A DNA stretch of 64,000 bases, taken from contig CAXAFE010000005.1 in assembly GCA_963968165.1 (NCBI GenBank), forward strand, positions 24,047 through 88,046, written 5' to 3'. Made by a program: the position numbers and the translations under genes. Below, one piece after another: positions 30,619 to 52,754 of the stretch (positions are counted from its first letter, which is position 1; each line of letters begins with the position of its first letter). Under the pieces are notes generated by a model. It was not told the origin of the DNA. It was given only the letters and a program-made list of their open reading frames with translations, and did not search any database. The DNA is from an uncultured Candidatus Poseidoniales archaeon. GTDB taxonomy: Archaea; Thermoplasmatota; Poseidoniia; Poseidoniales; Thalassarchaeaceae.

Positions 30619-31629
30619 ATGATGAATAAAGCGAAACTCGAATATATATGGTTAGACGGATATTTCCCTACTCAAAATATGAGAAGTAAAACTATGATAA
30701 TTGAAGATTTCAGTGGCGATTTAGAAGATTGTCCGACTTGGTGCTTTGACGGAAGCTCAACAAAACAAGCCGAAGGAAACTCCTCAGATTGTTTATTAAA
30801 GCCAGTTGCTATTTATCCAGACCCAATGAGATTGAATGGTTACTTAGTTATGAATGAAGTTTTAAATCCTGATTCTAGCCCTCACATATCAAATGGAAGA
30901 TCTACGATAGATGATGATGATGATGATTTTTGGTTCGGTTTCGAACAAGAATATTTCATTATGGATGTCCAAACACAGTTACCTTTAGGATTCCCTTTGG
31001 GAGGGTACCCAGGCCCTCAAGGATTATATTATTGTTCAGTAGGTGGCAAGAATACGCATGGACGAGATTTTGTTGAAGAGCATGCAGACTTATGCTTGGA
31101 TGCCGGAATAAACTTTGAAGGAATAAATCAAGAAGTTGCCTGCGGCCAATGGGAGTTTCAATTATTCGCCAAAGGAGCAAAAAAAGCTGGCGATGAATTG
31201 TGGATAGCCAGATATCTATTGGATAGATTAACTGAAAAATATGGATATTACATCGAATATCATCCTAAGCCAATTAAGGGAGACTGGAATGGCTCAGGAA
31301 TGCATGCTAATTTTTCCGATACAAATTTAAGATCAAGTGGAAGTAAAGATATTTTTGATAAGGTATGTATGGCATTTGGAGAAAATATAAAGATGCATAT
31401 GGATGTTTATGGGGCCCATAATGAATTAAGATTAACGGGCCTCCATGAGACTCAATCTATACATGAGTTCTCTTATGGTGTTTCTGACAGAGGTGCATCA
31501 ATTAGAATACCAATCGGTACGGTCGAGGATGGTTGGAAAGGTAGGTTAGAAGATAGAAGGCCAGCATCAAATGCTGATCCTTATAAAATTGCATCTGTAA
31601 TTGTAAAAACTACAAAATCTGCGTATTAA
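30619..31629 (+). CDS. glnA: Glutamine synthetase, type II (eukaryote-like)
   Basis: LEYIWLDGY, WCFDGSSTKQAEGNSSD, WFGFEQEYF, GYPGPQGLYYCSVG, ACGQWEFQ, GSGMHANFS are GSII-type motifs. Start placed at ATG 30619. Confidence 0.85.
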   Translation: MMNKAKLEYIWLDGYFPTQNMRSKTMIIEDFSGDLEDCPTWCFDGSSTKQAEGNSSDCLLKPVAIYPDPMRLNGYLVMNEVLNPDSSPHISNGRSTIDDDDDDFWFGFEQEYFIMDVQTQLPLGFPLGGYPGPQGLYYCSVGGKNTHGRDFVEEHADLCLDAGINFEGINQEVACGQWEFQLFAKGAKKAGDELWIARYLLDRLTEKYGYYIEYHPKPIKGDWNGSGMHANFSDTNLRSSGSKDIFDKVCMAFGENIKMHMDVYGAHNELRLTGLHETQSIHEFSYGVSDRGASIRIPIGTVEDGWKGRLEDRRPASNADPYKIASVIVKTTKSAY

Positions 31630-32576
31630 TTATTGTGTAAAATTTCAATCACTTCATCGGCGCATCCCCAAGACAGCGTTACGCCTGATCCGCCATGACC
31701 ATAATTATGAATGATTATTTTTTCTTCAATTGATTCTTTTTCAAGTCGTACCTCATTTCTGGAAGGTCGTAAGCCAACTGATACGCCAATGATTTTTTCT
31801 CTGTCCAATTCCGGCCATAATGACTCACATTTAATCAAAATATCTTCAGTGTCCTCTTCCCTAATTTCCATTGACCAATCATTTATCTGAGCAGTCCCTC
31901 CTAAAACTGTTACATCGTTTCTTGGTATGGTGTATGTCAGAGTTTCTGGTTGTTGATCATATCTCCCAATTCCGGGGTCTTGTTCGATGTACAGAACCTG
32001 CCCCCTTATCGGCGTTACCTGCAAATCTTTACACAGTTCTCTTGCTCCAAGTCCCACACAATTAATTATAATATTTTCATCTAAATCAGAGAAATTTATC
32101 AATTTTTTTTCTTTAAATTTACAATTCATTTTTGTTAATTCATTTTTCATCCATGGCATATAAAGATTCATTTGAATGACAGGAGCCTCAAATTCCCAAC
32201 CAAAAACATAATCATTTACTAGCTCATCATTATTCAATATCCTAAATCCATTTATTCCTTGGGTCCATTCGTGAGGACTTATAATTTCTCTTAGAAATTC
32301 TCTTCCCTTTCTAATTGTAACTCCAGATTCTGGAAATTCTTCTGCTAATCTATATAATTCTGCATAAGTTTCTAAACCCCATCTGTTAGTTTTTTCTATC
32401 GGATATGATAAGAATGGATACCAAACCGCAGCGGCAACATCTGAAACAGTATTTGGACTGAATTTATCTGCATAAATTGTTACTTTATGATTATTTTGTA
32501 ACAGCCTCATTGCAGAAGACATACCTGAAATTCCAGCGCCTATAACTCCGCATTCCATATGTTCCGTAATACTCAC
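31626..32576 (-). CDS. D-amino-acid oxidase-like FAD flavoprotein
   Basis: Dinucleotide fold CGVIGAGISGMSSA; SDVAAAVWYPF; C-terminal HNYGHGGSGVTLSWGCA, typical of the DAAO family; 316 aa. Confidence 0.75.
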   Translation of the reverse strand: MSITEHMECGVIGAGISGMSSAMRLLQNNHKVTIYADKFSPNTVSDVAAAVWYPFLSYPIEKTNRWGLETYAELYRLAEEFPESGVTIRKGREFLREIISPHEWTQGINGFRILNNDELVNDYVFGWEFEAPVIQMNLYMPWMKNELTKMNCKFKEKKLINFSDLDENIIINCVGLGARELCKDLQVTPIRGQVLYIEQDPGIGRYDQQPETLTYTIPRNDVTVLGGTAQINDWSMEIREEDTEDILIKCESLWPELDREKIIGVSVGLRPSRNEVRLEKESIEEKIIIHNYGHGGSGVTLSWGCADEVIEILHNN

Positions 32577-35338: not shown

Positions 35339-37672
35339 ATGTCAAGAAATTTTAAATCTGGATTTATTTTATCAATTATATATTTTTTATTTCTTATGAC
35401 TAGTTTCACTCCTGTTAGTATTGCTCAGAACTACGAACAATATGATGGTCCGGGAATATCGTTTGAATACCCTGACAGTCATATGCTTTTCCTGAAGGGT
35501 TCCGAAGATAATACATATTTGGATCGTAATTGGTCAGTATTGACAGGTTTACCACAAGGCAGTGCATCTTTTACTCGGGCCAGTGCAGCTACTTCACCTA
35601 ATTTAATAAATGCAAATTCTGCACCTTTAGAAGAAGCATTTAGATTCAATGGAAATTTATCCATATCTCTTTTTGCATCTCTGGAAGGCACAGGTACTAA
35701 TTCTTGTAAATCAACTAGTATCTTGCCCAGCCCGGTAAGTTCCGAGACACAATTTACAGTAACTTTCTCGATGGGAGGAGTTATAATTTTAGATCAAGAA
35801 AATACCAATTCTATCTCTATGTCACAAGGCTACACCGAACCTCATGAATTTATAGTACAAGCTTCAAATGTTAACTTAAGTTTAGGAATTGGCGATACTA
35901 TTGATATTTCTGTCGATGTAAGGCACGAATGTATCGAATCTGGATCATTATGGTGGGGGTCATATGATGTAAGGTCAGGCATTACATTTGAAGGTAAATT
36001 CCTGGAAGTTGAATTGGATGCCATTGTTGATGCAAACAGGATGGTAAGAGTTGAGTTAATGCCAATATCTCCATGGGGGATTGGAGATTTCACTCATCAA
36101 GTAATAGAAATCGTTGGACCGACATATTGGACAAGTATGTATCATGGTGAATGGGATAATGAAGACTTACGTCAATATCATTTCGAAACTCCTCAAGGTA
36201 CACGTACAGGGGAGGGAAATAGGACAATATTAACTTGGACGTCTGATAAGCCATTAGAACCAGGAAATTATATGGTTGATGTATGTATTGACCTTTCTGA
36301 TCAAAATCCTGGTGATACTTGCAATATAATTGTCGTATTAAGATTCAATATACCTGAAGATCCTAAATCTCTTATCAATGGTGAATGGGCTGCTATTATC
36401 ATACCGTTTGGAATAATTACTTGGATTTTTATCTCTCTTCGTGGAGCAATGCTCCCATTGCCTGCTTATGGAGTTATAATTTTACTAGCATTTGCAAGTT
36501 TAGGCCCTGCAATGGATTTACCTGATATTGATTCCCAACCATACAGGGAAAATGGTGCTGCCCCATCTTTCCTACTATTATCTCATAATCCAGATACCGG
36601 CTCTATTTCTCTCTCAGATCTATTATCAGATTGTGATGTAGTTGTAATTGGTATGTTCCAACCGGGTTCTCCAAATGCCTTACTTCAATTTAGGGATTTT
36701 TCAAATTCACAGAAATATAATGATGAAAATATAAAATATGTCCAGATTGCCACCGGAGAAGGATTAAGGGCAACAGATTTAGATTCTTATGCAATTATGC
36801 TAAATAACTCATGGCCCTTACTAATTGATGAGGCCGACTCAAATGTAGGTTTCTCTTTACCAAATAGGGCAAGCGATGCAGTTTTGATTATAGACGCGGC
36901 TGGATTTATTTCTGAGTGGAAACCTGGCTCAATGTCGTCGGTTGAGATTGATGAGGCTTCAAGAAAATCATCATGGGGCTCAGGAAATAATCCAATTACA
37001 ATCATTTCTCTATTATTTTCATCAGCATTACTTCCAATAATCGTTTTATCTATGCCAAGGGAACGTAAATTCAAATTTCCTGATGAACCACTTATACCCG
37101 GTGCAGGTAGTATATTGATTTTTTATTCTTCAATAGTAGGATTTTCCTATTGGGCTATCCCGATTGCATTATTGGCTTCAATAGGTGCAGGTCAATATTG
37201 GATATATGTCGAATTAATTTTGACATTACTTCTAATTTATCATGGGATATCAATTTTACGCACCGGTAAAATAAAAGAAATTGAATTCTTGTCTAAATAT
37301 GCATATTCAAAACTTCCTACAATCTATAAAGACTGGAAAAACTATGAAAGCTTTAATGAAGATACATATTTGGGATTATGGTTGGCTTGGCTGGTTTGGA
37401 TACAAATTCCCGACTTAATATCTCAAGGCGTCGGCTCAATCGCACAAACAGGTGTATTTGGCTCATTTTTATCAATATTTTTTATGTTAGGATATATTTT
37501 ATGTGGTGGAATTTGTATAATATTAGCTAGAAATCTAGCATTAATTATGGGCCCAATATCAAGAATTTTTGGTGAGATGAGCATTGGACTGAGACCAAGG
37601 GCATGGGGACTAGCATCAGCAATCTTCGGATTTTGGATTATGCTTAGTATCTTACTTGGGCCACTAACATAA
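35339..37672 (+). CDS. Large envelope/membrane protein: signal peptide, external beta-rich region, Cys-less thioredoxin-like domain, polytopic C-terminus
   Basis: N-terminal signal (ILSIIYFLFLMTSFTPVSIAQ). Residues ~405-540 look like a redoxin fold (APSFLLLSHNPDTGSISLSDLL...VVVIGMFQPGSPNALLQF) with GSPN where CxxC would be. At least 8 TM segments. No family recognised. Confidence 0.5.
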   Translation: MSRNFKSGFILSIIYFLFLMTSFTPVSIAQNYEQYDGPGISFEYPDSHMLFLKGSEDNTYLDRNWSVLTGLPQGSASFTRASAATSPNLINANSAPLEEAFRFNGNLSISLFASLEGTGTNSCKSTSILPSPVSSETQFTVTFSMGGVIILDQENTNSISMSQGYTEPHEFIVQASNVNLSLGIGDTIDISVDVRHECIESGSLWWGSYDVRSGITFEGKFLEVELDAIVDANRMVRVELMPISPWGIGDFTHQVIEIVGPTYWTSMYHGEWDNEDLRQYHFETPQGTRTGEGNRTILTWTSDKPLEPGNYMVDVCIDLSDQNPGDTCNIIVVLRFNIPEDPKSLINGEWAAIIIPFGIITWIFISLRGAMLPLPAYGVIILLAFASLGPAMDLPDIDSQPYRENGAAPSFLLLSHNPDTGSISLSDLLSDCDVVVIGMFQPGSPNALLQFRDFSNSQKYNDENIKYVQIATGEGLRATDLDSYAIMLNNSWPLLIDEADSNVGFSLPNRASDAVLIIDAAGFISEWKPGSMSSVEIDEASRKSSWGSGNNPITIISLLFSSALLPIIVLSMPRERKFKFPDEPLIPGAGSILIFYSSIVGFSYWAIPIALLASIGAGQYWIYVELILTLLLIYHGISILRTGKIKEIEFLSKYAYSKLPTIYKDWKNYESFNEDTYLGLWLAWLVWIQIPDLISQGVGSIAQTGVFGSFLSIFFMLGYILCGGICIILARNLALIMGPISRIFGEMSIGLRPRAWGLASAIFGFWIMLSILLGPLT

Positions 37673-37744: not shown

Positions 37745-37933
37745 GGGGGTATAGTATAACCTGGTAGTACAGCGGGCTCCAGTTGCACGGGAATGACGAC
37801 GAGAAGGTTTTCTGATGGTTTTGATGACCAACTGGAGCACCGACCCATCGCAACCCGAGAGCGTGCGCCTGCCGGGTGCACGCTAGGCGGAAGATACCCG
37901 CTGATCTGGGTTCAAATCCCAGTGCCCCCACCA
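37745..37933 (+). tRNA. tRNA-Trp (anticodon CCA) with a 113-nt intron at the canonical 37/38 position; CCA encoded
   Basis: Exon 1 37745-37782 (acceptor GGGGGTA, D arm GTAT-AACCTGGTA-GTAC, anticodon stem GCGGG, loop CTCCAG). Exon 2 37896-37933 (A, CCCGC, TGAT, CTGGG-TTCAAAT-CCCAG, TGCCCCC, A, CCA). Splice positions inferred from the cloverleaf, uncertain by a few nt. T5 follows. Confidence 0.85.
37789..37846 (+). ncRNA. Intron-encoded box C/D sRNA guiding 2'-O-methylation of tRNA-Trp C34
   Basis: C ATGACGA (37793-99), 12-nt guide, D' CTGA (37812-15), 6-nt loop, C' TGATGA (37822-27), 12-nt guide CCAACTGGAGCA, D CCGA (37840-43), terminal stem GGG/CCC. The D guide forms 10 contiguous base pairs with 37776-37785 and puts C34 (37779) opposite the fifth nt upstream of box D. 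Confidence 0.7.
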
Positions 37934-37999
37934 TTTTTACTACACTTAGTTATACTTTTACGGGATTCTTTCAAGTCTTATGTGTACTTCGCATATCTC

Positions 38000-40129
38000 A
38001 TGAATCATAAGCTACTGTGTTTAGTAACTTGTATAATTATCGTAACTCCTCTCTCTGGTAGTATTTTTAACACAGAAATATCCTCAAAAAAACTAGCTAA
38101 TCAGTTATTTGATGATAATCAATCTCTGTATCCACCTAGTCAAGAAAATAGCCCATTTAATTATTCAAATGAATGGTGGATTCATTCCTCATTAGACTCC
38201 GATAGAAATGGGATACACGATTCTCTTCAAAACACTACTGGTATTGTAAATATTGGACTTTCATATTCTGAATCTTTTGATGATAATCATAGAAATAATT
38301 TATCTTCATTAGGCTTAACCGTCAAACAAGAATTACATTCTGTTAACGCTATTCTATTAGGGAGTATCAATGCAAGTTTGATTAATTCCATTTCTGATCT
38401 TGAAGGAGTAATTATGGTTGAAAGATATGGTTCGGTAGTATTCTATGGAGATATACAAACTCCTACTGTTAAAGCTAAAACTACTCCATTATATCCAGGA
38501 GCATGGGACTTGGGCGTTTCTGGTCTAGGTGTTAATATCGCATTAACCGACACAGGTGTAGATGAAGAACACCCAGGATTAAATGGTAAATTTGTAGCAG
38601 GTTATGATGCGGTCTGTTTCTTACACTCAGATCCAACTTGCGTCCTCGCAGGAGGAAGGGAAACTGATGGTTCTTTCAATCCAGATGATGCAAATCAACA
38701 TGGGACTGCGTGCATGGGAATGGCAGCAGCTACGGGAATAGAAAGCGATGGAAGTATTTCCAATTTTACAGGTTCCGCACCAAATGCATCAACTATTGAT
38801 GTCAGAATCGGTACCGATGCTGGGGCAGGTCCATTTGAAAACTACATCTTAGAACAGGAATTTTATGAATCAGCAATGAATGGTTTACAATGGATAATCG
38901 ATCACAAAGATGATGCATGGCAAGGCGCTTCAGAAGAAAATTATGGCATTGATATTATTTCCCTATCATGGGGAATAACTAGTCATGAAACAGGAGGCTC
39001 CGATGGCAGTGACATGCATAGTCGTATTCTTGATGAAGCAATGGAGGCCGGAATTACGGTATCAGCTGCTGCAGGTAATGACGGTCCAGATAATGATGGA
39101 CTATCGGGAATGGGATCTTCATCATTGTCTATAACCGTTGGAGCAACTGACGATCAAAATAGCATAGATCGTGATGATGATACAATAGCGTCTTACTCCA
39201 GTAGGGGGCCAAGAAGAGATAATGGAAATGATAACCCTCTTGATGAACTAAAGCCCGAGATAAGTGCCCCGGGTAGTAATATAATTCAGGCTGAAGGATG
39301 CGTGTCTTCTGGACAATGTAACAATAATATTCCGGGCCAAGATGCCTCTGAAAATACCTACACTGGAAGAGGTAGTGGCACATCATATGCAACTCCATCA
39401 GTTTCAGGAATCATAGCATTAATCATCGAAGCCAATGATGATTTATCACCAGCACAAATAAAGGAAATCTTGAAACAAACAGCAGAAAGAAAGGGAGATC
39501 CAACCTTTCCTGATATCGACCCATATTGGAATAGGGATTTTGGTTATGGTATGGTAGACGCATATGCAGCAGTTTCTATGGCTATATATCTCAAAGAAAC
39601 ATCCCAAACTAGTAGTATTAATGAGCATCTACAAAATCATTTACTGAATCAGAGTTTAAAATCTGGAATTATTAATATCACAGGACACGCATGGGGCCAA
39701 GGAATGTCGGTTGCAAAAATAGAATATAGGATCGATGGAGGCCTATGGAATGATGCTACATACTCTTATACAAACTCCTCTATAGATTCACTTACTCCAT
39801 TTTTATGGCATATTATTTTGGATTCTTCAAAAATAGAGGAAGGAACTCATCAAATAGAAATACATGCAAAATATGATGAGTATAATTCATTGCCAATTTT
39901 ATTAGAAATAGAGGGTACAAATGGTGACTTCGAAGATAACAAAATTCCATTATTAGCAGTCATGGGAATATCTTCAGTCTTCTTAATCTGGATTATGGCC
40001 ATAATCTTTGTTGGACTCCGTGGTGATGATAATATAAATCAAAAAATTTCAAAAATTAAAGATATTATAAAATCAAAAACAGGGAATACAAATGAAGATA
40101 ATTTTTTAGAAGCTGAATTGGTATCTTAA
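38000..40129 (+). CDS. Secreted/anchored subtilisin-like serine protease (peptidase S8)
   Basis: Catalytic triad contexts ALTDTGVD, HGTACMGMAA, GSGTSYATPSVSG. Signal peptide after ATG 38000 (MNHKLLCLVTCIIIV); C-terminal TM LLAVMGISSVFLIWIMAIIFVGL. The track start 37793 runs through the tRNA-Trp gene and is rejected. Confidence 0.85.
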   Translation: MNHKLLCLVTCIIIVTPLSGSIFNTEISSKKLANQLFDDNQSLYPPSQENSPFNYSNEWWIHSSLDSDRNGIHDSLQNTTGIVNIGLSYSESFDDNHRNNLSSLGLTVKQELHSVNAILLGSINASLINSISDLEGVIMVERYGSVVFYGDIQTPTVKAKTTPLYPGAWDLGVSGLGVNIALTDTGVDEEHPGLNGKFVAGYDAVCFLHSDPTCVLAGGRETDGSFNPDDANQHGTACMGMAAATGIESDGSISNFTGSAPNASTIDVRIGTDAGAGPFENYILEQEFYESAMNGLQWIIDHKDDAWQGASEENYGIDIISLSWGITSHETGGSDGSDMHSRILDEAMEAGITVSAAAGNDGPDNDGLSGMGSSSLSITVGATDDQNSIDRDDDTIASYSSRGPRRDNGNDNPLDELKPEISAPGSNIIQAEGCVSSGQCNNNIPGQDASENTYTGRGSGTSYATPSVSGIIALIIEANDDLSPAQIKEILKQTAERKGDPTFPDIDPYWNRDFGYGMVDAYAAVSMAIYLKETSQTSSINEHLQNHLLNQSLKSGIINITGHAWGQGMSVAKIEYRIDGGLWNDATYSYTNSSIDSLTPFLWHIILDSSKIEEGTHQIEIHAKYDEYNSLPILLEIEGTNGDFEDNKIPLLAVMGISSVFLIWIMAIIFVGLRGDDNINQKISKIKDIIKSKTGNTNEDNFLEAELVS

Positions 40130-42597: not shown

Positions 42598-42752
42598 AGA
42601 CCTACGTGACCCCCTCTGAAGATAAGTTCTTCATATGTTTTATAAATTTAAATTGATATTTTATGATAATGAGATGAATTCCATTATAAGATTTACATTC
42701 AAACTTAGACCCCATACTTTCATACACATATGTTTAGTCGTATTACTTGTCT

Positions 42753-45700
42753 ATGCGCAGTCTGTATTCATATATCGTCGTCGCCCTCTTTCTTCTAGTC
42801 AGTGCATCTCCAGCTGTTGTAGTTTCAAATTTTGAAGATTCTAAAGTATCTAAAATTGGTCCAAAAAGTGACGCAGTCGATTTTAAGGTTTTAGAAATAG
42901 AATTAGGAAATTCTTCTAGCGTACCATTGCAATGGGAGCAGCCAGACACATCAATGCAAGAATATATAATTAAAGGAAATGCTATCCAAATTAACGTCAC
43001 ATTTGTTCAGTTAGGTTTTACACCAACTCAAGTCACTGCAAATGCAACCTTACAAGTCTGGCATCCTATAGGGTTTTTAATCAAAGAATGGAATTTCAAT
43101 GTAACTTTATCTAGTTCTCAGCAAGATAGAAAGAACTTCATTTGGACTCCGAATGCTGCCCACAGTATACTTTCTGATAATGGCTACCTTGGAGGAGGTA
43201 TGGTGATAGTTGGCTTGGTTGATGCCGGGTTACAAGATGGTGACAATACTAATGATAGGGCAGAAAGGTCAGTTCCAGTAGCAGCTTGGTTCGATGATTT
43301 AGATAACGGCTACTGCGCAGATGAGGGTAGTGAAGGAAAATACTGCTCAAATATCCCTCAAGGATATGGTAGACCAAATTGGTTCGGTGCGGGTTATGAG
43401 CCAAATGGTATAACTTTAGATGGTGACTTTCCAACTGGAACATGGAGGATGGAAAACAGTTCCAGCTCTATTGGCGAATGGCACTGGAAAGTTTCTGGTG
43501 ATGATAGTGATAGGTATGCATCAAATAGGCATGATAGGCTACATTGGGGGTGGGTAACTACCAATAATCAAGATGGTTGTGCTGATGGAGTATGGGGAGA
43601 TGGATATAGTCATGAGTTGGGGCAAGGTGAATTTTCATCTACACTTTCTTCACTATATTCGTCATATTTATGCAAGGTAAAAATTAAAAGTCCTAATTTC
43701 TTTTCAATGCAAATAGTTACAAATGCTTGGGGCATAATGGATTCTGGAGATTCCATAGAATTAGAAACAGATTCTGGTTATGAACAACATTATTATAATT
43801 ATACTACTCAAAACTTATCACAATCCGAGGGCGACTGGTCACGATTAATTTGGAATGTATCTAATCTTCATCAATCGGGAGGCTTTTCATTATCATTCTT
43901 GTTTAAATCGGATGGTTCAGATGCCAATGAAGGGATTCACATTGATTCATTTCTAATCTTTGGAATAGAAAGATATCCGGAATATACTCTTAATGCAGTT
44001 TGCAACGACCCCCTTCCTAATTCTTACATAGTACTTGCAGCCGATCCGCGCCCCCCCTCATTGCATTGTCGAGTTTTCAATAAAGGATACATTGACATAA
44101 CCTTGAGATACTTTACTACTTTATCGAATCAATCTTGGATGTATCAATATCCACTTAGAATAGACTCTAACAATAACGTGGATCATGATAATTTTGTTGT
44201 AAGCAAGGTCATTAAAGCAAGAACTGTTACTGATGTGTGGTTCAATTTGTCTATTCCTGATGGAACGCTTGTTCAGGAATTAGATTGGATTGTAAATATC
44301 AATGATGGTGTCCTTAATAATTCGAAATACTCGCTTGTGCTGCCCGTGAAAGTCGATCCTACATATTCAATAATACTAGCACCAGATAAACTCTCTAATC
44401 CTGCAGCAACATTACTTCCTGGAGAAAAGACGAATATAACTATGAATTTAAAAAATAATGGCAACCAAGTTGCGACTTGGAATCTTGGTGGAGCGTTTGA
44501 CACAAATGAATGGCCAGCACAATATATTCAGTGGTATGATTCATCAAATGGAGATGCTATATCTCTCCTAAACTCTTCTATAAATGAAGAATTTATTCTA
44601 AATGCAGAAATCACTGTTCCAGAAGGTTTAGCACCTGGAATTTACACGTTGACCCTTATAGCAAATGGTCGTGCTCCCGCGATCTTTCAATCAGAAACAG
44701 TTCTCTACATAGAAGTCCCAGTTTATCATAATTTAGTAATCGCACCCATAACAAATTCATTGATGGCTCCAGCAAATGGTTATGGAAAAATTGTTGAAAT
44801 ATTTTTAATAAATAATGGAAATACTGAAGAATCATTTGATATCACTGTTACTTCTGATAATTATCGGTTAAAGGCTACATCAAGCGCAGAATTAACTCCT
44901 GGAATACCAGCAAATGGCGGAGATACTTCAATTTCTCTGCTCTTGCCCATGCCAAAAGGAATCCTAAATGGTACTTACAGGATAACAATCTATGCGACAA
45001 GTACAATCAATCCAGATTATACCTCCAGTTCGAACATATATCTTACAGTGCCTGTGACTAATTTAGTTGAAATTCCTGACTTGGATATGACTGAGGAAAT
45101 ATTTAGTGCAGGTAGCGACGACAGGACACTAAGATGGGAAATATTGAATACTGGAAATATTGCTGATTCTTTTGAGATTTCTTTCTCTCACACATCTGAT
45201 GTATACACTTCTGCTCAAGGATTAAATGAAGGTAGGACTCCATATATTAAACCAGGTTCTTCATATAATATATCTCTAAGTTATTCGTTTGGTGAAAATG
45301 CCGATGGTACAAGAATAATCACGCTTGAAGCAACTAGTGTCGAAGCTTCGAAAAATGACATTTTAGTTGTCGGAAGCGGAGAGGCACTATTCAACGTCGG
45401 GACAGTGGGGTGGCTCAGAGTGTTGACGCCTCCTACAGACTCTGATGCCATGGACATAACAGAAGCTGGCGATGAATATTCGCTTCAATATACGGTTCTA
45501 AGCATGCACCCAACAGATGACCAGCAAGTGAGATCCGAAGTTGAACTAGAAAATCAATATACTGTCTACAGCGCAAGAATAGGCGAGGAAGATAGAGACT
45601 TTGTACTAAAAGCAGGTGAATCTAGAAGTGTAACTATATACTTAGATATACGAGAAGAAGATTTAGAAAATTTAAATATGGATCAACTAGATTTTGATGT

Positions 45701-46187
45701 TTCACTTCTGGTGACAAGTGAATTAGATGTTTCCAAAAGAACAACATCTATTTCATTGACTAAACCAACTCCGATAGAAGTTGGTAGAGACGCTGGAGAC
45801 TATGTTTGGATAACTGGAAATATAGTAATAATTCTCATAGGTACTGTAATATTTTTGGGGTTATCTGTGATAACCTTTAGAATAGTCAGAAAAGCTAATG
45901 CACCTCTGGAAGAAATCTCTACTCTAGATGGTTATGATATGTCAATAGATACGTGGGATAATGAGGTTGGTAGTAAATCCTTGCCATCTGCAGATATGAT
46001 TGCAAACTCAATGTTTGGAGGTTCAGAAGATATATTCCAACAATCTTTGAATAATTCCGACGCTGTAGTCGAAAATAATGATTTAGATATCACTCCTCCT
46101 TTGCCCTCTTCAGGTTTACCGGAAGGATGGTCCATGGAGCAGTGGGTACACTATGGCCAAGAATGGCTCGATGATAAAAAACTTTAA
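42753..46187 (+). CDS. Very large surface protein (S-layer/adhesin candidate) with repeated CARDB/NEW3-like beta-sandwich modules, C-terminal TM and cytoplasmic tail
   Basis: Signal MRSLYSYIVVALFLLVSASPAVV. Repeats with LLPGEKTNITMNLKNNGNQVATWNL, IVEIFLINNGNTEESFDITV, LRWEILNTGNIADSFEISF. TM WITGNIVIILIGTVIFLGLSVITF followed by a ~125-aa acidic tail. An alternative TTG start lies at 42747. Confidence 0.6.
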   Translation: MRSLYSYIVVALFLLVSASPAVVVSNFEDSKVSKIGPKSDAVDFKVLEIELGNSSSVPLQWEQPDTSMQEYIIKGNAIQINVTFVQLGFTPTQVTANATLQVWHPIGFLIKEWNFNVTLSSSQQDRKNFIWTPNAAHSILSDNGYLGGGMVIVGLVDAGLQDGDNTNDRAERSVPVAAWFDDLDNGYCADEGSEGKYCSNIPQGYGRPNWFGAGYEPNGITLDGDFPTGTWRMENSSSSIGEWHWKVSGDDSDRYASNRHDRLHWGWVTTNNQDGCADGVWGDGYSHELGQGEFSSTLSSLYSSYLCKVKIKSPNFFSMQIVTNAWGIMDSGDSIELETDSGYEQHYYNYTTQNLSQSEGDWSRLIWNVSNLHQSGGFSLSFLFKSDGSDANEGIHIDSFLIFGIERYPEYTLNAVCNDPLPNSYIVLAADPRPPSLHCRVFNKGYIDITLRYFTTLSNQSWMYQYPLRIDSNNNVDHDNFVVSKVIKARTVTDVWFNLSIPDGTLVQELDWIVNINDGVLNNSKYSLVLPVKVDPTYSIILAPDKLSNPAATLLPGEKTNITMNLKNNGNQVATWNLGGAFDTNEWPAQYIQWYDSSNGDAISLLNSSINEEFILNAEITVPEGLAPGIYTLTLIANGRAPAIFQSETVLYIEVPVYHNLVIAPITNSLMAPANGYGKIVEIFLINNGNTEESFDITVTSDNYRLKATSSAELTPGIPANGGDTSISLLLPMPKGILNGTYRITIYATSTINPDYTSSSNIYLTVPVTNLVEIPDLDMTEEIFSAGSDDRTLRWEILNTGNIADSFEISFSHTSDVYTSAQGLNEGRTPYIKPGSSYNISLSYSFGENADGTRIITLEATSVEASKNDILVVGSGEALFNVGTVGWLRVLTPPTDSDAMDITEAGDEYSLQYTVLSMHPTDDQQVRSEVELENQYTVYSARIGEEDRDFVLKAGESRSVTIYLDIREEDLENLNMDQLDFDVSLLVTSELDVSKRTTSISLTKPTPIEVGRDAGDYVWITGNIVIILIGTVIFLGLSVITFRIVRKANAPLEEISTLDGYDMSIDTWDNEVGSKSLPSADMIANSMFGGSEDIFQQSLNNSDAVVENNDLDITPPLPSSGLPEGWSMEQWVHYGQEWLDDKKL

Positions 46188-47889: not shown

Positions 47890-47981
47890 TTATCATCAAC
47901 TTTCACTGTTTATCTGATAACTAATAAACGAGAGTTATAATAATCGGTTGCATGTGGACATGATAACACAAAGGTGATTAT

Positions 47982-50168
47982 ATGTCCGATGATAGATCTT
48001 TACTCATTTTATATGGCTCCCAGTCCGGTAATTCCGAAGAAGTAGCAATTCAAGCAGGAAAATTAGCCCTAAATCACAATCTCAAAGCAACAGTTAGGGC
48101 AATGGATGAAATCTCCATACCAGAAATAGTAAACCAAGGTAGGATAATGATATGTTGTAGTACATGGGGCGACGGAGAGCAACCCGACAATGCTGAAGAT
48201 TTATGGGAAGCTGCTAATTCTGCAGATGTAAATTCTCTCTCTAGTCTTAATTTCTCTGTTCTCGCATTGGGTGATTCATCTTATGATTTATTCTGTGAAT
48301 CAGGAAAAGAATGGGATAATTGGTTTGAAACAAAAGGTGCAAATAGAATACATGCCCGAGTGGATTGCGATGTGGACTTCGAAGATAAAGCAAAAATTTG
48401 GATGGATGAGACATTATCAAAATTATCGAATATACAAGTGAATTCTACTAGTGGCGAAGTATCAGAAGAAATTCCAGTTTTAGAAAAACCAATTGATGCC
48501 ATTGTTGAAGATACTGCAGATACCGCTTCGTCTGGAGATGATATTGAAGGTTTTATAAAGTCGGGAGATAGAAATTTGACCGTCTTATTCGGATCTCAAT
48601 CCGGAAATTCCGAGGAGTTAGCAGCTAAAATTGCAAAAAATGCTGTAGATTATGGATTAAAGGGTACAGTTTTCGATATGGATGGTTTCGATTTTAATAC
48701 TTTATCTGAACATAAAAGAGTTCTAATCGTCTGTTCAACATGGGGCGAAGGAGAAATGCCCGATAATGCAGAAGAACTCTGGAAAGTTGCTACACAAGAT
48801 AATGCTCCCAAACTCAACTCCACAAATTACTCTGTGCTTTCCCTAGGGGACTCAAGTTATGATTTGTTTTGTCAATCAGGAAAAGATTGGGATAAAAGAT
48901 TTGAGGAACTTGGTGCAAAACGTCTTGTAAATAGGGTTGATTGTGACGTAGATTACGAATCTTTGGCAACACAGTGGTCCCTGGATGCACTATCTTCAAT
49001 GGCGGCAGTAGATGATACTGGAAACTTCCATGAAAGTAAACTAGAGATGATAAAACAATATGCTTCAGGAATGGATGCTGTCGGAGCCTCGGGCGATGAT
49101 GGTTTTAAGATACCAGATTTAATTTCCAGGAAAATAGAATTGGAAGTATCCATATTCAGATATGATCCTGAATCAAATACTAGTGGAAAAGATACGTGGG
49201 CCTGCTCTTTACCTGGTAATATGTCCGTTTTAGAAGTATTAAGGACTCTAAAAAATACACAGGATGGAACATTAACTTTCAGAGACGGGCCTTGTACAGA
49301 TCCTAATACTGCACTTTCAATCAATGGCCGTCTAGTATTGCCGGGCACTATTTCTCTGGACTCCATACATACAACCACAGAAGAAAAATTGAATTTAAGA
49401 ATTGAACCTCTGTCCTCGTTCCGAATTATTCGTGATTTATTAGTAGACACGTGGTCACTAGAAAGAGATAGAGAATCTAGTAAACCATGGATGATGGCAG
49501 CAACTCGGGAAGGAAAAAATACTCCTCAGGGACCAATAGGAGTTATGAGTCAATCTGATGCATGTTATCTACACTCTATCAAAAACTTCCAAAGTCCCAT
49601 ATTATTACATGCAAGTTCAGACACAACTCCTTTCTCAGAATCATATGTCGGACCTTCTTTAATAGCCTCCGCTTGGGCTAGAAGAAATGATCCAAGAACT
49701 TCCAAATCTAAGAAGAAGCTAATTGATGATTTTATAGGTTCCAAAAATGGAATAAAGGCAGAAACTGATTTCTCCTCTATCAGGCGTCAATCTTCCAATA
49801 ATATCGCAATTTCCAATGCTCTAATGGATGCACGAACTTCAGCATTAACTCAATCATCATTTAATGGGCGCCATGGGAAGCATGTTTGGTGGTATACTTG
49901 GTCAATTAAAAGCAGTGGTAAAGTAAATGATACTGTATTATTTAGGCAAGTTCTGGGTCCAATTGGACTGCTTAGTAATCTGTTTTCCGGAGTGACTGCG
50001 AGAATGCTATTAGGATTTACCCGTACAGGTGGAAACATGATAAATGATGGTCTGGGAATGGTCCTTCCTCCTGCTGGCATAGGTAAAATGCCACGCCAAT
50101 TCAATTCATCTGTTAATAATCACCATGAAGTGATATCCATTTTCAATGAATTGGATGGTAGATTTTAA
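47982..50168 (+). CDS. Fusion protein: two tandem flavodoxin-like FMN domains + SdhB/FrdB-like domain lacking the Fe-S ligand cysteines + unknown C-terminal region
   Basis: Fld1 LLILYGSQSGNSEE/CCSTWGDGEQPDNAE/LALGDSSYDLFCESGK. Fld2 LTVLFGSQSGNSEE/VCSTWGEGEMPDNAE/LSLGDSSYDLFCQSGK. SdhB-like LEVSIFRYDPES, MSVLEVLRTLKN, LTFRDGPCTDPNTALSINGR, FRIIRDLLVD, YVGPSLIASAWARRNDPR. AGGTGA SD upstream. Confidence 0.7.
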   Translation: MSDDRSLLILYGSQSGNSEEVAIQAGKLALNHNLKATVRAMDEISIPEIVNQGRIMICCSTWGDGEQPDNAEDLWEAANSADVNSLSSLNFSVLALGDSSYDLFCESGKEWDNWFETKGANRIHARVDCDVDFEDKAKIWMDETLSKLSNIQVNSTSGEVSEEIPVLEKPIDAIVEDTADTASSGDDIEGFIKSGDRNLTVLFGSQSGNSEELAAKIAKNAVDYGLKGTVFDMDGFDFNTLSEHKRVLIVCSTWGEGEMPDNAEELWKVATQDNAPKLNSTNYSVLSLGDSSYDLFCQSGKDWDKRFEELGAKRLVNRVDCDVDYESLATQWSLDALSSMAAVDDTGNFHESKLEMIKQYASGMDAVGASGDDGFKIPDLISRKIELEVSIFRYDPESNTSGKDTWACSLPGNMSVLEVLRTLKNTQDGTLTFRDGPCTDPNTALSINGRLVLPGTISLDSIHTTTEEKLNLRIEPLSSFRIIRDLLVDTWSLERDRESSKPWMMAATREGKNTPQGPIGVMSQSDACYLHSIKNFQSPILLHASSDTTPFSESYVGPSLIASAWARRNDPRTSKSKKKLIDDFIGSKNGIKAETDFSSIRRQSSNNIAISNALMDARTSALTQSSFNGRHGKHVWWYTWSIKSSGKVNDTVLFRQVLGPIGLLSNLFSGVTARMLLGFTRTGGNMINDGLGMVLPPAGIGKMPRQFNSSVNNHHEVISIFNELDGRF

Positions 50169-51028
50169 TGCCCCTGAAATATGCATATCACCCAGGTAAT
50201 GTTTCACATAGTAGCGCGCCTGAAGTAAAAGATACTCTATTCCCTATTATTAAATCTCTAGGAATAGAATTAACTTTGCTGGAAGGGGCTACAAGTTGTG
50301 GAGCTGGAATTATTAGACAAGCTAACAATAGGCTACAACTTACATTAAACGCACGTACTTTTGCTATGGCTGAATCAATGGGACTGGATATAATGACTCC
50401 TTGTGGCGCTACTGCAGGTAACTTGAATGAAGATTTACAAACACTATTAAATGATAATATTCTTCTAGCAGAAATAAATGTTATTTTGAATAAAACTTGT
50501 GGTTTGGAATTTAGTGGTGGGATAAAAGTTCACCACCTACTTCACGTTTTAGTCGATGATGTTGGTTTAGAAAAAATTGAAAAAAATGTTAAAAATCCCT
50601 TGAATTTTTCTATTGCAGGATATTATGGCCCAAATATGCAACAGCATGGTATGTGTGGAAAAGATGACGTTTATAATCCATCATATTTGGAAAAATTAAT
50701 CGTTGCGGTAGGTGGAAAGGCAGTCGAGTGGGATAGCCGGACACAAAGCGTTGGTGTACCAGGAATATTATCCGAAGAGCCCACGGTTTTACTGCAATCT
50801 GCTAACGTAATATTGGATGCTAAAGATGAAGGTGCAGACATAATTGTAAGCGCTTGTAATTTATCTCACACTATTTTAGATGTATACCAAGGAAAAGCAT
50901 CTCGAGTTTCAGAACGTCCAATCAATATTCCTGTAATGCATTTAACAGAAATGATCGACTTTGCATTTGGTCATCATAATACTAGATTAGCACAATTAAG
51001 AACAAGGATAGCAGTTATAGGAAACTGA
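50168..51028 (+). CDS. HdrB / type-E SdhC(SdhE)-like protein with degenerate CCG cysteine motifs
   Basis: Two-halved architecture: YHPGN...TSCGAG...TPCGATAGN and YYGPN...VGVPG...GADIIVSACNLSH. It parallels the PGC...CCG...CxxC repeats of CCG-domain proteins, but most Cys are replaced. TAATG overlap with the upstream gene. Confidence 0.6.
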   Translation: MPLKYAYHPGNVSHSSAPEVKDTLFPIIKSLGIELTLLEGATSCGAGIIRQANNRLQLTLNARTFAMAESMGLDIMTPCGATAGNLNEDLQTLLNDNILLAEINVILNKTCGLEFSGGIKVHHLLHVLVDDVGLEKIEKNVKNPLNFSIAGYYGPNMQQHGMCGKDDVYNPSYLEKLIVAVGGKAVEWDSRTQSVGVPGILSEEPTVLLQSANVILDAKDEGADIIVSACNLSHTILDVYQGKASRVSERPINIPVMHLTEMIDFAFGHHNTRLAQLRTRIAVIGN

Positions 51029-51029: not shown

Positions 51030-52754
51030 TCAATCATATTCGTCCAATCCCTTTTGGGCCTTTGATTTAAAATCTAGTATTTTACGACTTCTTTCCTTAT
51101 TGATTACTTCAGTTTCATCAAAATTAACTACTTTAGGCCGTATTTTGTACTGTTCTCTGATTATATAATCATTTGCAGATATGACATTATCTTCAAAATT
51201 TACATAAAAGTTATCCAATTTTTTCCTATCTAAATTCTTGGGATGAGGTAAATTTCTCTTGACTCTTTGTACAGCTTTCCTCATATTCAATTCTCTTCTG
51301 GATGCAGCAATACTTGCGCCCTCATCTCTCGTTCCTTCAGCAATTAGTACAATCACTTCTCCTTCCCTATGTCTTCCAGTACGGCCCCTTCTTTGTATTG
51401 TTCTAGTTTCACTGGAGACAGGCTCATAAAAAATTACTAAATCAGCACTAGGTATGTCTAAACCTTCTTCTCCTACTGATGTCGATAAGAGTATGTTGTA
51501 TTTTCCTAGTTTAAATTGTTCCAATCTTTCAATCTGTTCCTTAGGTTTCATTCCCATTTCCCCAATTCTTTTAGATTGCCCTATAAATTGAATCGGGGAT
51601 GCCCCGCTTAAATCTTCCAAAGCTTTTTCTAGGACCTTTATCGTGTCCCTATAATTTGCAAATATTATTATTCTGCTATTTTTATTTCGACGAAGCCTCT
51701 CTCTAACCAATCTCCTTACAGCACTAATTTTGGAATGTATTTCATCATTTTGATTTATCCCCTGTTTAAGTTTTTGAATTCTTAAATCTCTCATAAAAGT
51801 TAATATTGATTTTGTTTTTTTGTCGTTTGACAAACGATTAAGAAATTCATTTGAAGCTGCTGTACCCTGGCATAATAAGTGATTTATTAGATGATGTAAA
51901 CGCATTGCTGTGGCAATTTGGGAAACTGATGTATATCCTGTCTTATCTCCTCTAACTATAGAGTTTTGAGCTCTTTCCATAGCATTTGAAAGTCCGATAT
52001 GATTAATATCTCCTGGCATCACATATCTTCCTCGCCTCCTTTCTTGATCTACAATTCCTTGCTGCCAAATCTTTAATGGTTTGACCATTTTATGAATTTC
52101 TTGAGGTACAGTGACTTTTATTTCTTGTATTTCCAAATTAGATAAGTATACTGAAAGCATCGGATCATCTGGATTTCTTAAGTGAATTCTGTTAATGCAA
52201 AGTCTTCTACATATTTCTTCAACATTGGATATTTTATATCCCGGACTTGCAGTCATTGCAAGGATTATTGATTTTGAAGATGCAAAATTATACATTTCTC
52301 CTAATTCAGCCATTGCGTGATTACCTGTAGCATGATGTGCTTCATCTAATATCATCAATGAGCATTTTGAAAGATCTAAAAGTCCGGATTTTACGTCATT
52401 TCTGGCTACTTGGGGCGTAGCTATGATTATTTTAGATGATTTCCATAGATTCAATCTAGTATTGGAAGGATTCTGACCTGTAATTGATAATGGTTCAAAA
52501 TCATGCTTAATAATTCGTTTCATATCCTGCAAGTGTTGGTTAACTAATGCTACAGTGGGAGCAATCATTAATATCCAATCATCATCAAGTAATTTTTCTG
52601 CAGCAGCCATCCATGCCACTGCTGTTTTACCTGCAGCCGTAGGTAATACTAGTAACATAGAATCAGATAATATCTCATTTAATGCCTCTAGTTGATATGC
52701 ACGAGCCTCCACCGTCATTTCAGATAAGTTTTCGTGCCTTACCATCGGGTGCAT
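51030..52754 (-). CDS. Hef/FANCM-type (ERCC4-related) superfamily 2 helicase, helicase part only
   Basis: ARAYQLEAL, LPTAAGKTAVA (motif I), ILDEAHHATG (DEAH), TSVGEEGLDIP, QRRGRTGR (motif VI). No XPF-type nuclease domain within the 574 aa. Confidence 0.8.
   Translation of the reverse strand: MHPMVRHENLSEMTVEARAYQLEALNEILSDSMLLVLPTAAGKTAVAWMAAAEKLLDDDWILMIAPTVALVNQHLQDMKRIIKHDFEPLSITGQNPSNTRLNLWKSSKIIIATPQVARNDVKSGLLDLSKCSLMILDEAHHATGNHAMAELGEMYNFASSKSIILAMTASPGYKISNVEEICRRLCINRIHLRNPDDPMLSVYLSNLEIQEIKVTVPQEIHKMVKPLKIWQQGIVDQERRRGRYVMPGDINHIGLSNAMERAQNSIVRGDKTGYTSVSQIATAMRLHHLINHLLCQGTAASNEFLNRLSNDKKTKSILTFMRDLRIQKLKQGINQNDEIHSKISAVRRLVRERLRRNKNSRIIIFANYRDTIKVLEKALEDLSGASPIQFIGQSKRIGEMGMKPKEQIERLEQFKLGKYNILLSTSVGEEGLDIPSADLVIFYEPVSSETRTIQRRGRTGRHREGEVIVLIAEGTRDEGASIAASRRELNMRKAVQRVKRNLPHPKNLDRKKLDNFYVNFEDNVISANDYIIREQYKIRPKVVNFDETEVINKERSRKILDFKSKAQKGLDEYD

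What the first reader, a model, noticed from the sequence alone, without database searches (positions are those of the whole stretch)
47982..51028. Cysteine-depleted SdhB-like and HdrB/SdhE-like pair fused to two flavodoxin modules: possible iron-sulfur-free electron-transfer module
The 728-aa ORF has the architecture Fld-Fld-SdhB-like-unknown. Two tandem CysJ/flavodoxin-type FMN modules (nt ~47982-48430 and ~48570-49000) repeat the same three motifs. They precede a region (nt ~49131-49800) that I can align by eye along its length with succinate dehydrogenase/fumarate reductase Fe-S subunit SdhB: LEVSIFRYDPES, MSVLEVLRTLKN, LTFRDGPCTDPNTALSINGR, IEPLSSFRIIRDLLVD, YVGPSLIASAWARRNDPR. At the positions of the 2Fe-2S, 4Fe-4S and 3Fe-4S ligand motifs nearly every Cys is replaced. 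For example, the Cx2Cx2Cx3CP motif reads CYLHSIKNFQSP here, and the second Cys cluster region reads IRRQSSNNIAISNAL. The next gene is coupled by a TAATG overlap and has the two-halved layout of HdrB or the CCG-domain SdhC/SdhE of type-E succinate dehydrogenases. Both of its CCG motifs are also eroded: PGC becomes PGN and GPN, CCG becomes SCG and VPG, and only one Cys is left of each CxxC. Both partners therefore keep fold-level signatures but seem to have lost all cluster sites, while two FMN sites were gained. No SdhA-like flavoprotein is adjacent. Hypotheses: a flavin-for-iron substitution in an electron relay (analogous to flavodoxin replacing ferredoxin under marine iron limitation), or a catalytically silent scaffold or regulatory paralog. 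I do not know of a described system with this composition.
Basis: partly seen in the sequence, partly recalled or inferred. Interest (0 to 1): 0.85.

Follow-up and report, generated by a model that had tools for sequence, protein, structure and literature searches.

The report
Cluster-less SdhB/SdhE pair with tethered flavodoxins
A two-gene module found throughout the abundant ocean archaea Poseidoniales descends from the iron-sulfur subunits of succinate dehydrogenase, has lost nearly all of its iron-sulfur ligands, and carries fused ferredoxin or flavodoxin domains (two flavodoxins here); its function is unknown and databases mislabel it.

Summary
ORF A (47982-50168, 728 aa) is Fld-Fld-SdhB-like. 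ORF B (50168-51028, 286 aa) is an SdhE/HdrB-like CCG protein joined to A by a TAATG overlap.

All 12 SdhB cluster cysteines are replaced in 85/85 family members. B keeps 3 of 10 CCG cysteines plus a new one (C163); the three are invariant and C163 nearly so.

- It is present in at least 579 species-representative genomes, always at one syntenic locus.
- It is under strong purifying selection.
- It derives from a type-E sdhB-sdhE pair.
- The N-terminal carrier slot varies: Fd-Fd, Fd, Fd-Fld, Fld or Fld-Fld.
- Deep branches keep one intact CCG motif (44 of 214 proteins). The crown, including this window, has none.

The core lost its clusters before flavodoxin appeared, so FMN did not replace the SdhB relay. 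The iron-sparing swap is Fd to Fld in the tethered slot.

Most likely, a cluster-less scaffold presents mobile FMN carriers to a remodelled four-cysteine site in B. The chemistry (disulfide versus quinone reduction) is unresolved. No description exists in the papers searched, and one paper mislabels the genes.

The parts
47935..47978 (+). Putative promoter and ribosome-binding site of gene A: TATA-like TTATAATAA (47935-47943) and GGTGAT (47973-47978)
   Evidence: Read directly from the sequence. This is inference only, with no functional test.
47982..48431 (+). Flavodoxin module 1 (residues 1-150), occupying carrier slot 1
   Evidence: One of two Pfam Flavodoxin_1 stretches. 52% identical to module 2. 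Net charge -15. Relatives have a Fer4_13 ferredoxin or nothing in this slot.
48432..48572 (+). Acidic linker 1 (residues 151-197), ending in the conserved GDDIEGFIKSGDR motif
   Evidence: 25% Asp+Glu and 48 residues long. The SGDR motif is shared with Fd-Fld relatives such as P0243.
48573..49001 (+). Flavodoxin module 2 (residues 198-340), occupying carrier slot 2, orthologous to the single Fld of most relatives
   Evidence: Pfam best stretch 201-325. The FMN motifs GSQSGNSE, STWGEGE.PDNAE and LGDSSYDLFC are invariant in the family. 66-69% mean identity to slot-2 Fld modules of other clades.
49002..49136 (+). Linker 2 (residues 341-385) with the conserved GDDGF.IP motif
49137..49871 (+). SdhB-like core (residues 386-630): ferredoxin-fold N-domain plus helical domain, with all 12 cluster ligands replaced
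   Evidence: Fer2_3 1.4e-10. SdhB NCBIfam models match. Foldseek to SdhB/FrdB E 1e-11. Ligand positions are non-Cys in 85/85 members, with D440, S546 and E594 fixed.
49872..50168 (+). Conserved C-terminal extension (residues 631-728 plus stop): the most constrained part and a probable interface with protein B
   Evidence: Aligns with the C-terminal extension of long type-E SdhB, plus a family-specific insertion. dN/dS 0.024-0.047. pLDDT below 50 when folded alone.
50168..51028 (+). SdhE/HdrB-like protein with two CCG-fold halves (286 aa). Neither CCG motif is complete. C44, C79, C163 and C230 are conserved.
   Evidence: PDB HdrB E 7e-36. TM 0.81-0.83. 35-37% identity to type-E SdhE versus 29% to HdrB. 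Site pattern NSCCT/P-C-SV-C-S in 168 of 214 proteins.

Best explanation
Shown:
- This is the Poseidoniales version of a lineage-specific two-subunit module descended from the sdhB-sdhE pair of a type-E succinate:quinone reductase.
- The SdhB-derived core has lost all three Fe-S clusters in every member.
- The SdhE-derived subunit lost its second CCG site in every member. In the crown group, including this window, it lost the first site as well.
- It retains C44, C79 and C230, plus C163.
- The place of SdhA is taken by one or two low-potential one-electron carrier domains (ferredoxin or flavodoxin) fused to the N-terminus. Here these are two FMN flavodoxins.

Inferred:
- A and B form a complex held by the highly conserved C-terminal extension of A.
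- The SdhB-like core is a non-redox scaffold.
- The acidic Fld domains, on acidic linkers of about 46-48 residues, act as swinging carriers. They take electrons from an external low-potential donor, for example a 2-oxoacid:ferredoxin oxidoreductase.
- They deliver the electrons directly to the remodelled cleft of B.
- That cleft most likely performs thiol/disulfide chemistry. In deep branches it would use one noncubane [4Fe-4S] plus Cys, as in DsrK or FTR. In the crown it would use cysteines alone, or one residual four-Cys metal site.
- Replacing Fd by Fld and dropping exposed noncubane clusters fits life in oxic, iron-poor surface water.
For: - Homology and fold.
- Origin: the nearest Cys-containing relatives lie in sdhA-sdhB-CCG operons. 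B is closer to those SdhE proteins than to HdrB.
- Cluster loss in the core: 12/12 positions in 85/85 members, with fixed replacements.
- Bimodal CCG state: 170 crown versus 44 deep proteins with motif 1 intact, and no intermediates.
- Residual cysteines: C44, C79 and C230 are invariant in 121/121 and C163 is present in 120/121.
- Variable carrier slot: Fer4_13 and/or Flavodoxin_1.
- FMN motifs are invariant.
- Complex formation: adjacency with an overlap or a gap of at most 11 nt in every locus inspected.
- Selection: dN/dS 0.02-0.16, lowest in the A C-terminus.
- Tether: acidic carriers, long acidic linkers and a basic core.
- Spread: at least 579 species-representative genomes and a constant synteny.
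- Precedents: DsrK uses one CCG cluster plus a conserved orphan Cys (PMC10861901). Exposed Hdr-type noncubane clusters are expected to be O2-sensitive, and CCG sites change cluster type on loss of a single Cys (PMC13083937).
Against: - No biochemical or expression data exist for any member.
The proximity of the four cysteines, and of the Fld domains to B, is untested.
- The cysteines retained (equivalents of HdrB C42, C78 and C231) are not the bridging Cys81/Cys234 that PMC13083937 describes on the catalytic iron of each Hdr cluster.
- FMN-to-disulfide transfer from a flavodoxin-type domain is unusual chemistry.
- No substrate or donor gene is linked to the locus.
- The type-E SdhE ancestry points equally to quinone as the acceptor.
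Confidence: 0.4

Rival explanations
1. Peripheral ferredoxin/flavodoxin:quinone reductase. The degenerate SdhB/SdhE pair keeps the ancestral role of type-E SdhE as a monotopic membrane and quinone-docking module. The tethered FMN reduces quinone directly, giving Poseidoniales a route to feed low-potential electrons into the respiratory chain.
For: - The pair descends from type-E sdhB-sdhE.
- SdhE is proposed as the monotopic anchor and quinone site of type-E SQR, and CCG subunits occur in other quinone-linked dehydrogenases (PMC2754724).
- MGII genomes have only RnfB of the Rnf complex, so it is not established how they reoxidise ferredoxin (PMC6336850).
- The most hydrophobic stretch of A lies in the conserved C-terminal region.
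- From general knowledge, flavodoxin-fold FMN proteins such as WrbA reduce quinones.
Against: - There is no transmembrane or strongly hydrophobic segment (KD19 maximum 1.34).
- It does not explain the strict invariance of C44, C79, C230 and C163.
- In EtfD the quinone site is in the membrane and haem domain, not in the CCG domains.
Confidence: 0.22
2. The module is not truly metal-free. The four conserved cysteines of B (two per pseudo-symmetric half) bind one unconventional Fe-S cluster or a mononuclear metal at the interface of the two CCG halves, and this site accepts electrons from FMN. This overlaps with the best explanation and differs only in the nature of the site.
For: - Exactly four invariant or near-invariant Cys remain.
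- H123 and H234 are also conserved.
- EtfD shows that a CCG site lacking one Cys binds a four-Cys linear [3Fe-4S].
- A Zn site with S3(N/O) coordination was reported spectroscopically for HdrB and SdhE (PMC2754724).
Against: - The four Cys come from two different former sites, and their geometry is unknown.
- C163 is absent in 20 of 44 deep-group proteins.
- No known cluster type uses this ligand set.
Confidence: 0.2
3. One reading: a succinate-dehydrogenase-like electron relay in which FMN has replaced the Fe-S wire (flavin for iron), possibly still serving an SdhA-like flavoprotein encoded elsewhere.
For: - The SdhB N-domain, which contacts SdhA in complex II, is well conserved and confidently folded (pLDDT above 90).
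- Fd-to-Fld substitution does occur in the family.
Against: - The core is cluster-less even where only ferredoxin carriers exist (L007, L094).
- The Fld modules occupy an N-terminal tethered slot, not the positions of the clusters.
- No SdhA-like gene is nearby in any locus.
- MGII have a separate canonical complex II (PMC6336850).
Confidence: 0.08
4. A catalytically silent structural or regulatory paralog (pseudoenzyme), for example an assembly or chaperone-like factor, with the carrier domains acting as redox sensors.
For: - Loss of 12/12 and 7/10 canonical ligands.
- Constant location between the thermosome, helicase and ribosomal-protein genes rather than with metabolic genes.
- No substrate-related neighbour was found.
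Against: - FMN and ferredoxin motifs are strictly kept through repeated remodelling of the carrier slot.
- The residual Cys are invariant.
- Deep branches keep a complete catalytic-type CCG motif.
- dN/dS is as low as 0.02-0.05.
Confidence: 0.1

Closest known systems
Type-E succinate:quinone oxidoreductase SdhB-SdhE pair (Sulfolobus/Acidianus type; also the MFR SdhB/SdhE of Campylobacterota)
   Same: - Gene order: sdhB followed by the CCG protein.
- A long SdhB with a C-terminal extension, aligning collinearly over its full length.
- B is 35-40% identical to the SdhE proteins of such operons.
   Different: - There is no sdhA.
- All 12 SdhB cysteines and 7 of 10 SdhE cysteines are replaced.
- Fd or Fld domains are fused N-terminally.
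- An insertion of about 25 residues lies in the C-terminal extension.
- Scores fall far below the curated cutoffs.
HdrB (with HdrC) of heterodisulfide reductase
   Same: The fold with two CCG halves (TM 0.81-0.83, rmsd about 3 Å), and full-length sequence similarity (E 7e-36).
   Different: Neither noncubane-cluster motif is complete. Poseidoniales is an aerobic, non-methanogenic lineage by the MGII literature. The partner is SdhB-like rather than HdrC.
DsrK (DsrMKJOP), a CCG protein with one noncubane cluster plus a conserved orphan cysteine
   Same: The deep-branch relatives (L007-L010, L094, P0403-P0446) show the same logic: one intact CCG motif plus one invariant Cys from the lost motif (PMC10861901).
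   Different: - The window's protein has lost that cluster too.
- The orphan Cys is the first Cys of CxxC, not one of the CC pair.
- There is no DsrM-type membrane partner.
TfrB of thiol:fumarate reductase (SdhB-like fused to HdrB-like)
   Same: The same two modules work together without classical membrane anchors. NF004898 hits both A and B weakly.
   Different: The modules are on separate polypeptides here, there are no clusters and no TfrA/SdhA, and the scores are 27 and 12 bits against a cutoff of 385.
CysJ-type FMN domain and flavodoxin-for-ferredoxin replacement under iron limitation
   Same: The Fld modules match the FMN domain of CysJ (TIGR01931 positions 58-206). Fd and Fld alternate in the same slot across lineages.
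   Different: - There is no FAD/NADPH domain, so this is not CysJ (295 bits against a cutoff of 668).
- The swap is hard-wired in a fusion protein rather than regulated expression of separate genes.
PDB 3kwl (Helicobacter pylori hypothetical protein, function unknown)
   Same: Foldseek matches both models: core E 3.7e-06 and B E 1.7e-07, TMq 0.66.
   Different: No detectable sequence similarity, its cofactor content is unknown to me, and no study of it was found.

Membership tests
SdhB/FrdB iron-sulfur subunit (TIGR00384, PRK05950) | Two-domain fold: a plant-ferredoxin-like N-domain plus a helical bacterial-ferredoxin-like domain | tested here: met
   Pfam Fer2_3 scores 41.6 bits against a cutoff of 27. 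Foldseek to SdhB/FrdB chains gives E 1e-11 and probability 1.0.
SdhB/FrdB iron-sulfur subunit (TIGR00384, PRK05950) | Three cysteine groups ligating [2Fe-2S], [4Fe-4S] and [3Fe-4S]/[4Fe-4S] | tested here: not met
   0 of 12 positions are Cys in the window and in 85/85 family members. All 12 are Cys in the nearest canonical relatives.
SdhB/FrdB iron-sulfur subunit (TIGR00384, PRK05950) | Score above the curated family cutoff | tested here: not met
   TIGR00384 scores 51.5 against 88, and PRK05950 scores 56.1 against 228.
SdhB/FrdB iron-sulfur subunit (TIGR00384, PRK05950) | Operon or complex with an SdhA/FrdA flavoprotein | tested here: not met
   No FAD_binding_2/Succ_DH_flav_C gene lies within 10 kb in any locus or in the 64 kb window. 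Physical association was not testable.
HdrB / SdhE CCG-domain proteins (PF02754, TIGR03288, NF042965) | Fold with two CCG halves | tested here: met
   TM 0.81-0.83 to HdrB chains. Pfam CCG scores 35.3 against a cutoff of 20.6 for the first half.
HdrB / SdhE CCG-domain proteins (PF02754, TIGR03288, NF042965) | Two CXnCCGXmCXXC motifs, each supplying five ligands to a noncubane [4Fe-4S] | tested here: not met
   Motif 1 keeps 2 of 5 Cys (C44, C79) and motif 2 keeps 1 of 5 (C230).
HdrB / SdhE CCG-domain proteins (PF02754, TIGR03288, NF042965) | Score above the curated equivalog cutoff | tested here: not met
   TIGR03288 scores 135 against 345. NF042965 scores 118 against 500. HdrB-like_C scores 27.1 against 33.4.
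Flavodoxin / CysJ FMN domain (PF00258) | Flavodoxin_1 domain with FMN-binding loops | tested here: met
   208 bits against a cutoff of 25, in two stretches. The motifs are invariant in the family. FMN binding itself was not testable.
CysJ sulfite reductase flavoprotein (TIGR01931) | FMN domain plus an FAD/NADPH (FNR-like) domain | tested here: not met
   Only profile positions 58-206 match, and the score is 295 against a cutoff of 668. The label 'sulfite reductase flavoprotein' used in PMC6741140 is a mis-annotation.
DsrK-type single-cluster CCG reductases | One complete CCG motif plus a conserved cysteine from the degenerate motif | tested here: not met
   Not met by the window's protein. Met by the 44 deep-branch relatives.

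The most novel reading that the evidence does not exclude
In the crown Poseidoniales that carry only flavodoxin domains (such as this window), a respiratory complex-II Fe-S module has been rebuilt into a wholly iron-free redox enzyme. Tethered FMN carriers would feed a cysteine-only active site that replaced two noncubane [4Fe-4S] clusters. Extant deep-branching relatives preserve the one-cluster, ferredoxin-driven intermediate. If so, this is a stepwise, still-visible replacement of Fe-S catalysis by flavin/thiol catalysis, driven by oxic, iron-poor seawater.
Probability: 0.2. Interest if true: 0.85.

Novelty: new variant of a known kind. Interest (0 to 1): 0.66.

Why it matters
Poseidoniales (Marine Group II) are among the most abundant archaea in the surface ocean and have no cultured representative. 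This module is present in at least 579 species-level genomes at a fixed locus, and it is as constrained in places as the neighbouring thermosome gene. Yet databases and one paper label it a 'sulfite reductase flavoprotein' and an 'SDH cytochrome b subunit'. That mislabelling can distort metabolic reconstructions.

The family offers three things:
- A natural series of Fe-S loss: two clusters, then one, then none in the CCG subunit, and three to none in the SdhB subunit.
- A hard-wired ferredoxin-to-flavodoxin swap, making iron-sparing protein evolution directly testable by comparing extant orthologs.
- A candidate for the unresolved question of how these archaea handle low-potential electrons.

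Tried and rejected
- Motif-based gene finding missed more than half of the CCG proteins, so I replaced it with BLAST.
- I first suspected a strict correlation between 'ferredoxin present' and 'CCG motif 1 intact'. I rejected it because 23 loci have Fd-Fld with a fully eroded CCG protein.
- A membrane anchor was considered, but no transmembrane segment exists.
- CysJ identity is rejected because only the FMN domain matches.
- Decaying pseudogenes are rejected by dN/dS and the absence of indels.
- A linked SdhA or 2-oxoacid:ferredoxin oxidoreductase was sought in the window and in the flanks, and none was found.
- PDB 3kwl could not be followed up. It shares no sequence similarity with either protein and has no literature.
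- Literature searches for a description of the system found none.
- The taxonomy of the deep-branch contigs (L007-L010, L094) and of the type-E SDH relatives (L091, L092) could not be established.
- Carrier type could not be linked to depth or iron from the record titles alone.
- The module comparison uses mean identities, not a tree. 'Repeated duplication of Fld into slot 1' is therefore only suggested, by within-protein Fld1/Fld2 identities of 52-81%.


Full report
**1. What is in the sequence**

Two co-directional ORFs sit at the reported coordinates. A is 47982-50168 (728 aa) and B is 50168-51028 (286 aa). They overlap in TAATG. Upstream of A lie a TATA-like TTATAATAA and a GGTGAT ribosome-binding site (inference only).

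Profile matches:
- Pfam finds two Flavodoxin_1 stretches in A (E 7.9e-62) and Fer2_3 at residues 389-490 (1.4e-10). It finds CCG in B (1.2e-08).
- NCBIfam matches the FMN domain of CysJ twice. SdhB models cover A 385-650. HdrB and SdhE models cover B over its full length (2.7e-39 and 6.4e-34). All are far below the curated cutoffs.
- Solved-structure sequences give SdhB for the core (E ~1e-5) and HdrB for B (7e-36).

AlphaFold models:
- The core model has mean pLDDT 67.8, with the N-domain above 90. It matches SdhB/FrdB at E 1e-11.
- The B model has pTM 0.75 and matches HdrB at TM 0.81-0.83.

**2. The cysteine loss, position by position**

I aligned 85 family cores with 12 of the nearest cysteine-containing SdhB relatives. 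All 12 ligand positions (4+4+4) are Cys in the relatives and non-Cys in every family member. Several replacements are fixed: D440, S546 and E594 in 85/85, and T443 in 83/85.

The same alignment resolves the 'unknown' C-terminus. Residues 631-728 are the C-terminal extension of long type-E-like SdhB, plus an insertion of about 25 residues.

In B the ten CCG positions read N11, S43, C44, C79, T82 / P155, S194, V195, C230, S233. C44, C79 and C230 are invariant in 121/121 relatives. An extra cysteine, C163, is present in 120/121. B has therefore lost both canonical sites, but it retains four strictly conserved cysteines, two per pseudo-symmetric half.

**3. It is a conserved, functional family, not a relic**
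- Homologs of both genes are abundant in marine metagenomes and carry Poseidoniales, Thalassarchaeaceae or MGII labels.
- A scan of species-representative genomes found 579 stretches encoding the CCG protein.
- Every locus inspected has the same order: aminotransferase, large surface protein, thermosome, A, B, Hef-type helicase on the opposite strand, then the rpl3 ribosomal operon. A and B overlap or lie at most 11 nt apart.
- B is exactly 286 aa in 117 of 120 relatives.
- dN/dS against three relatives is 0.02-0.16 where dS is not saturated. The C-terminal extension of A gives 0.024-0.047, compared with 0.011 for the thermosome gene.

**4.

An exhaustive search of 1.84 billion representative proteins found about 15 family clusters. 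After a gap come ordinary SdhB proteins at 23-26% identity. Pfam on the representatives shows five N-terminal arrangements in front of the same cluster-less core:

| N-terminal arrangement | Examples |
|---|---|
| Fer4_13-Fld | P0242, P0243, P0245, P0248 |
| Fer4_13-Fer4_13 | P0254 |
| Fer4_13 alone | P0253 |
| Fld alone | the common 551 aa form |
| Fld-Fld | the window, P0241, P0244 |

Over 91 loci the counts are Fld-Fld 32, Fd-Fld 23+2, Fld 21 and Fd-Fd 2. The arrangements are scattered mosaically over CCG-protein clades.

The slot-2 Fld is orthologous across arrangements (66-69% mean identity). Fld1 is more divergent. Within single proteins Fld1 and Fld2 are 52-81% identical, which suggests repeated duplication into slot 1 (identities only, no tree).

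**5. Graded loss in the CCG subunit**

In four independent deep-branching lineages (L007/8, L009, L010, L094) the first CCG motif is fully intact (C-C-C-C-C). The second is eroded to x-SV-C-S. Across 214 non-redundant CCG proteins the states are strictly bimodal:

| Group | Pattern | Count |
|---|---|---|
| Deep | CCCCC / …SV-C-S | 44 |
| Crown | N-S-C-C-T / …SV-C-S | 170 |

No intermediates were found. C163 is already present in 24 of the 44 deep proteins.

All deep-group loci seen carry an N-terminal ferredoxin, and their SdhB-like cores are already cluster-less. The inferred order of events is:
1. SdhB loses three clusters, SdhE loses site 2, and SdhA is replaced by a fused ferredoxin.
2. 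In the crown, SdhE loses site 1 and Fd is variously replaced or supplemented by Fld.

The window represents the most iron-poor end state.

**6. Origin**

The nearest cysteine-containing SdhB relatives lie in sdhA-sdhB-CCG operons. One of them is next to succinyl-CoA synthetase. B is 35-40% identical to those SdhE proteins and 29-31% identical to HdrB.

MGII are reported to have a canonical complex II as well (PMC6336850). This module is therefore an additional, derived paralog.

**7. Mechanism**

Shown:
- The architecture and the ligand states.
- The conservation and the ancestry.

Inferred:
- A and B form a complex. This follows from translational coupling, homology to the SdhB-SdhE and HdrC-HdrB pairs, and the most constrained region of A folding poorly alone.
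- The core cannot conduct electrons.
- The strongly acidic Fld modules (net -15 and -11), on acidic linkers of 46-48 residues attached to a basic core (+5), behave as tethered mobile carriers. They would have to reach the acceptor site directly.

The acceptor is most plausibly the former cluster cleft of B, for three reasons:
- Its residual cysteines are invariant.
- Deep relatives retain a catalytic-type noncubane motif plus an orphan Cys there.
- DsrK uses the same arrangement for trisulfide/disulfide reduction (PMC10861901).

Hdr-type exposed noncubane clusters are expected to be oxygen-sensitive (PMC13083937). Their loss in aerobic surface-ocean lineages is therefore understandable independently of iron supply.

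I give this explanation 0.4.

Main rivals:
- A flavodoxin:quinone reductase that keeps the SdhE quinone-docking role (0.22).
- A single residual four-Cys metal or cluster site (0.2; this overlaps with the main explanation). The EtfD precedent shows that cysteine counting cannot exclude it.
- A silent scaffold (0.1).

**8. Comparison with known systems and novelty**

Membership in SdhB, HdrB/SdhE, CysJ and TfrB fails on defining features: ligand cysteines, curated cutoffs, partner genes and the FAD domain. Fold-level homology to the first two is firm, and Flavodoxin_1 membership is met.

No description was found in four literature searches. PMC6741140 noticed the conserved genes next to the ribosomal operon. 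[quoted passage not shown] Both labels are wrong on the evidence above.

I rate it a new variant of a known kind: a cluster-less SdhB/SdhE derivative driven by fused ferredoxin or flavodoxin. It is of real but not extreme interest, because the function remains untested.

Noticed in passing
window 51030-52754 (- strand): The Hef-type helicase next to gene B is 574 aa and has only DEAD/ResIII/Helicase_C domains. The syntenic gene in deep-branch relatives is 753-968 aa and carries HhH motifs; in L007 and L094 it also has an ERCC4 nuclease domain. In L010 the nuclease is a separate 265 aa gene. The nuclease part appears lost or relocated in the window's lineage.
   Followed up: partly
window 42747-46187 (+ strand): A 1146 aa ORF with no Pfam hit on record in relatives, rich in Asn/Ser/Thr and with a C-terminal hydrophobic anchor. 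It is conserved in synteny (1101-1146 aa) upstream of the thermosome gene in all loci seen. It is probably a surface or S-layer-type protein.
   Followed up: no
PDB 3kwl (not in the window): A 498 aa Helicobacter pylori structural-genomics protein of unknown function matches both the SdhB-like model and the HdrB-like model by fold. It has no detectable sequence similarity and no literature. It may be an unrecognised relative of the SdhB/HdrB fusion type.
   Followed up: partly
L029 (PBAZ01000031.1): A contig titled 'Chloroflexota bacterium isolate SP4360' carries the Poseidoniales module at 70% identity. This is probably a mis-binned archaeal contig in a bacterial MAG.
   Followed up: no
window 35339-37672 and 37793-40129 (+ strand): A 777 aa ORF with no Pfam match sits directly upstream of a 778 aa subtilase (Peptidase_S8) with a weak Ig-like domain match below the Pfam cutoff. 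The pair may be an extracellular protease with an unknown partner, which would fit MGII protein degradation.
   Followed up: no
P0251, P0258, P0264 (family fragments): Three divergent family members lack N-terminal carrier modules, and two of them (P0251, P0258) end in arginine-rich, low-complexity tails. They look like frameshifted or truncated gene calls rather than a carrier-less subfamily. P0264 lies on a 909 bp contig.
   Followed up: partly
window 30571-31629 (+ strand) and 31626-32576 (- strand): A short (352 aa) glutamine-synthetase-like protein sits convergent with a 315 aa DAO-family FAD oxidoreductase. The glutamine-synthetase homolog is shorter than the 344-position catalytic-domain profile plus N-domain would predict.
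   Followed up: no
window 27271-29013: Three tRNA genes (Ser-CGA, Arg-TCT, Ala-GGC) are clustered here. No other Rfam family reaches the gathering score anywhere in the window.
   Followed up: yes
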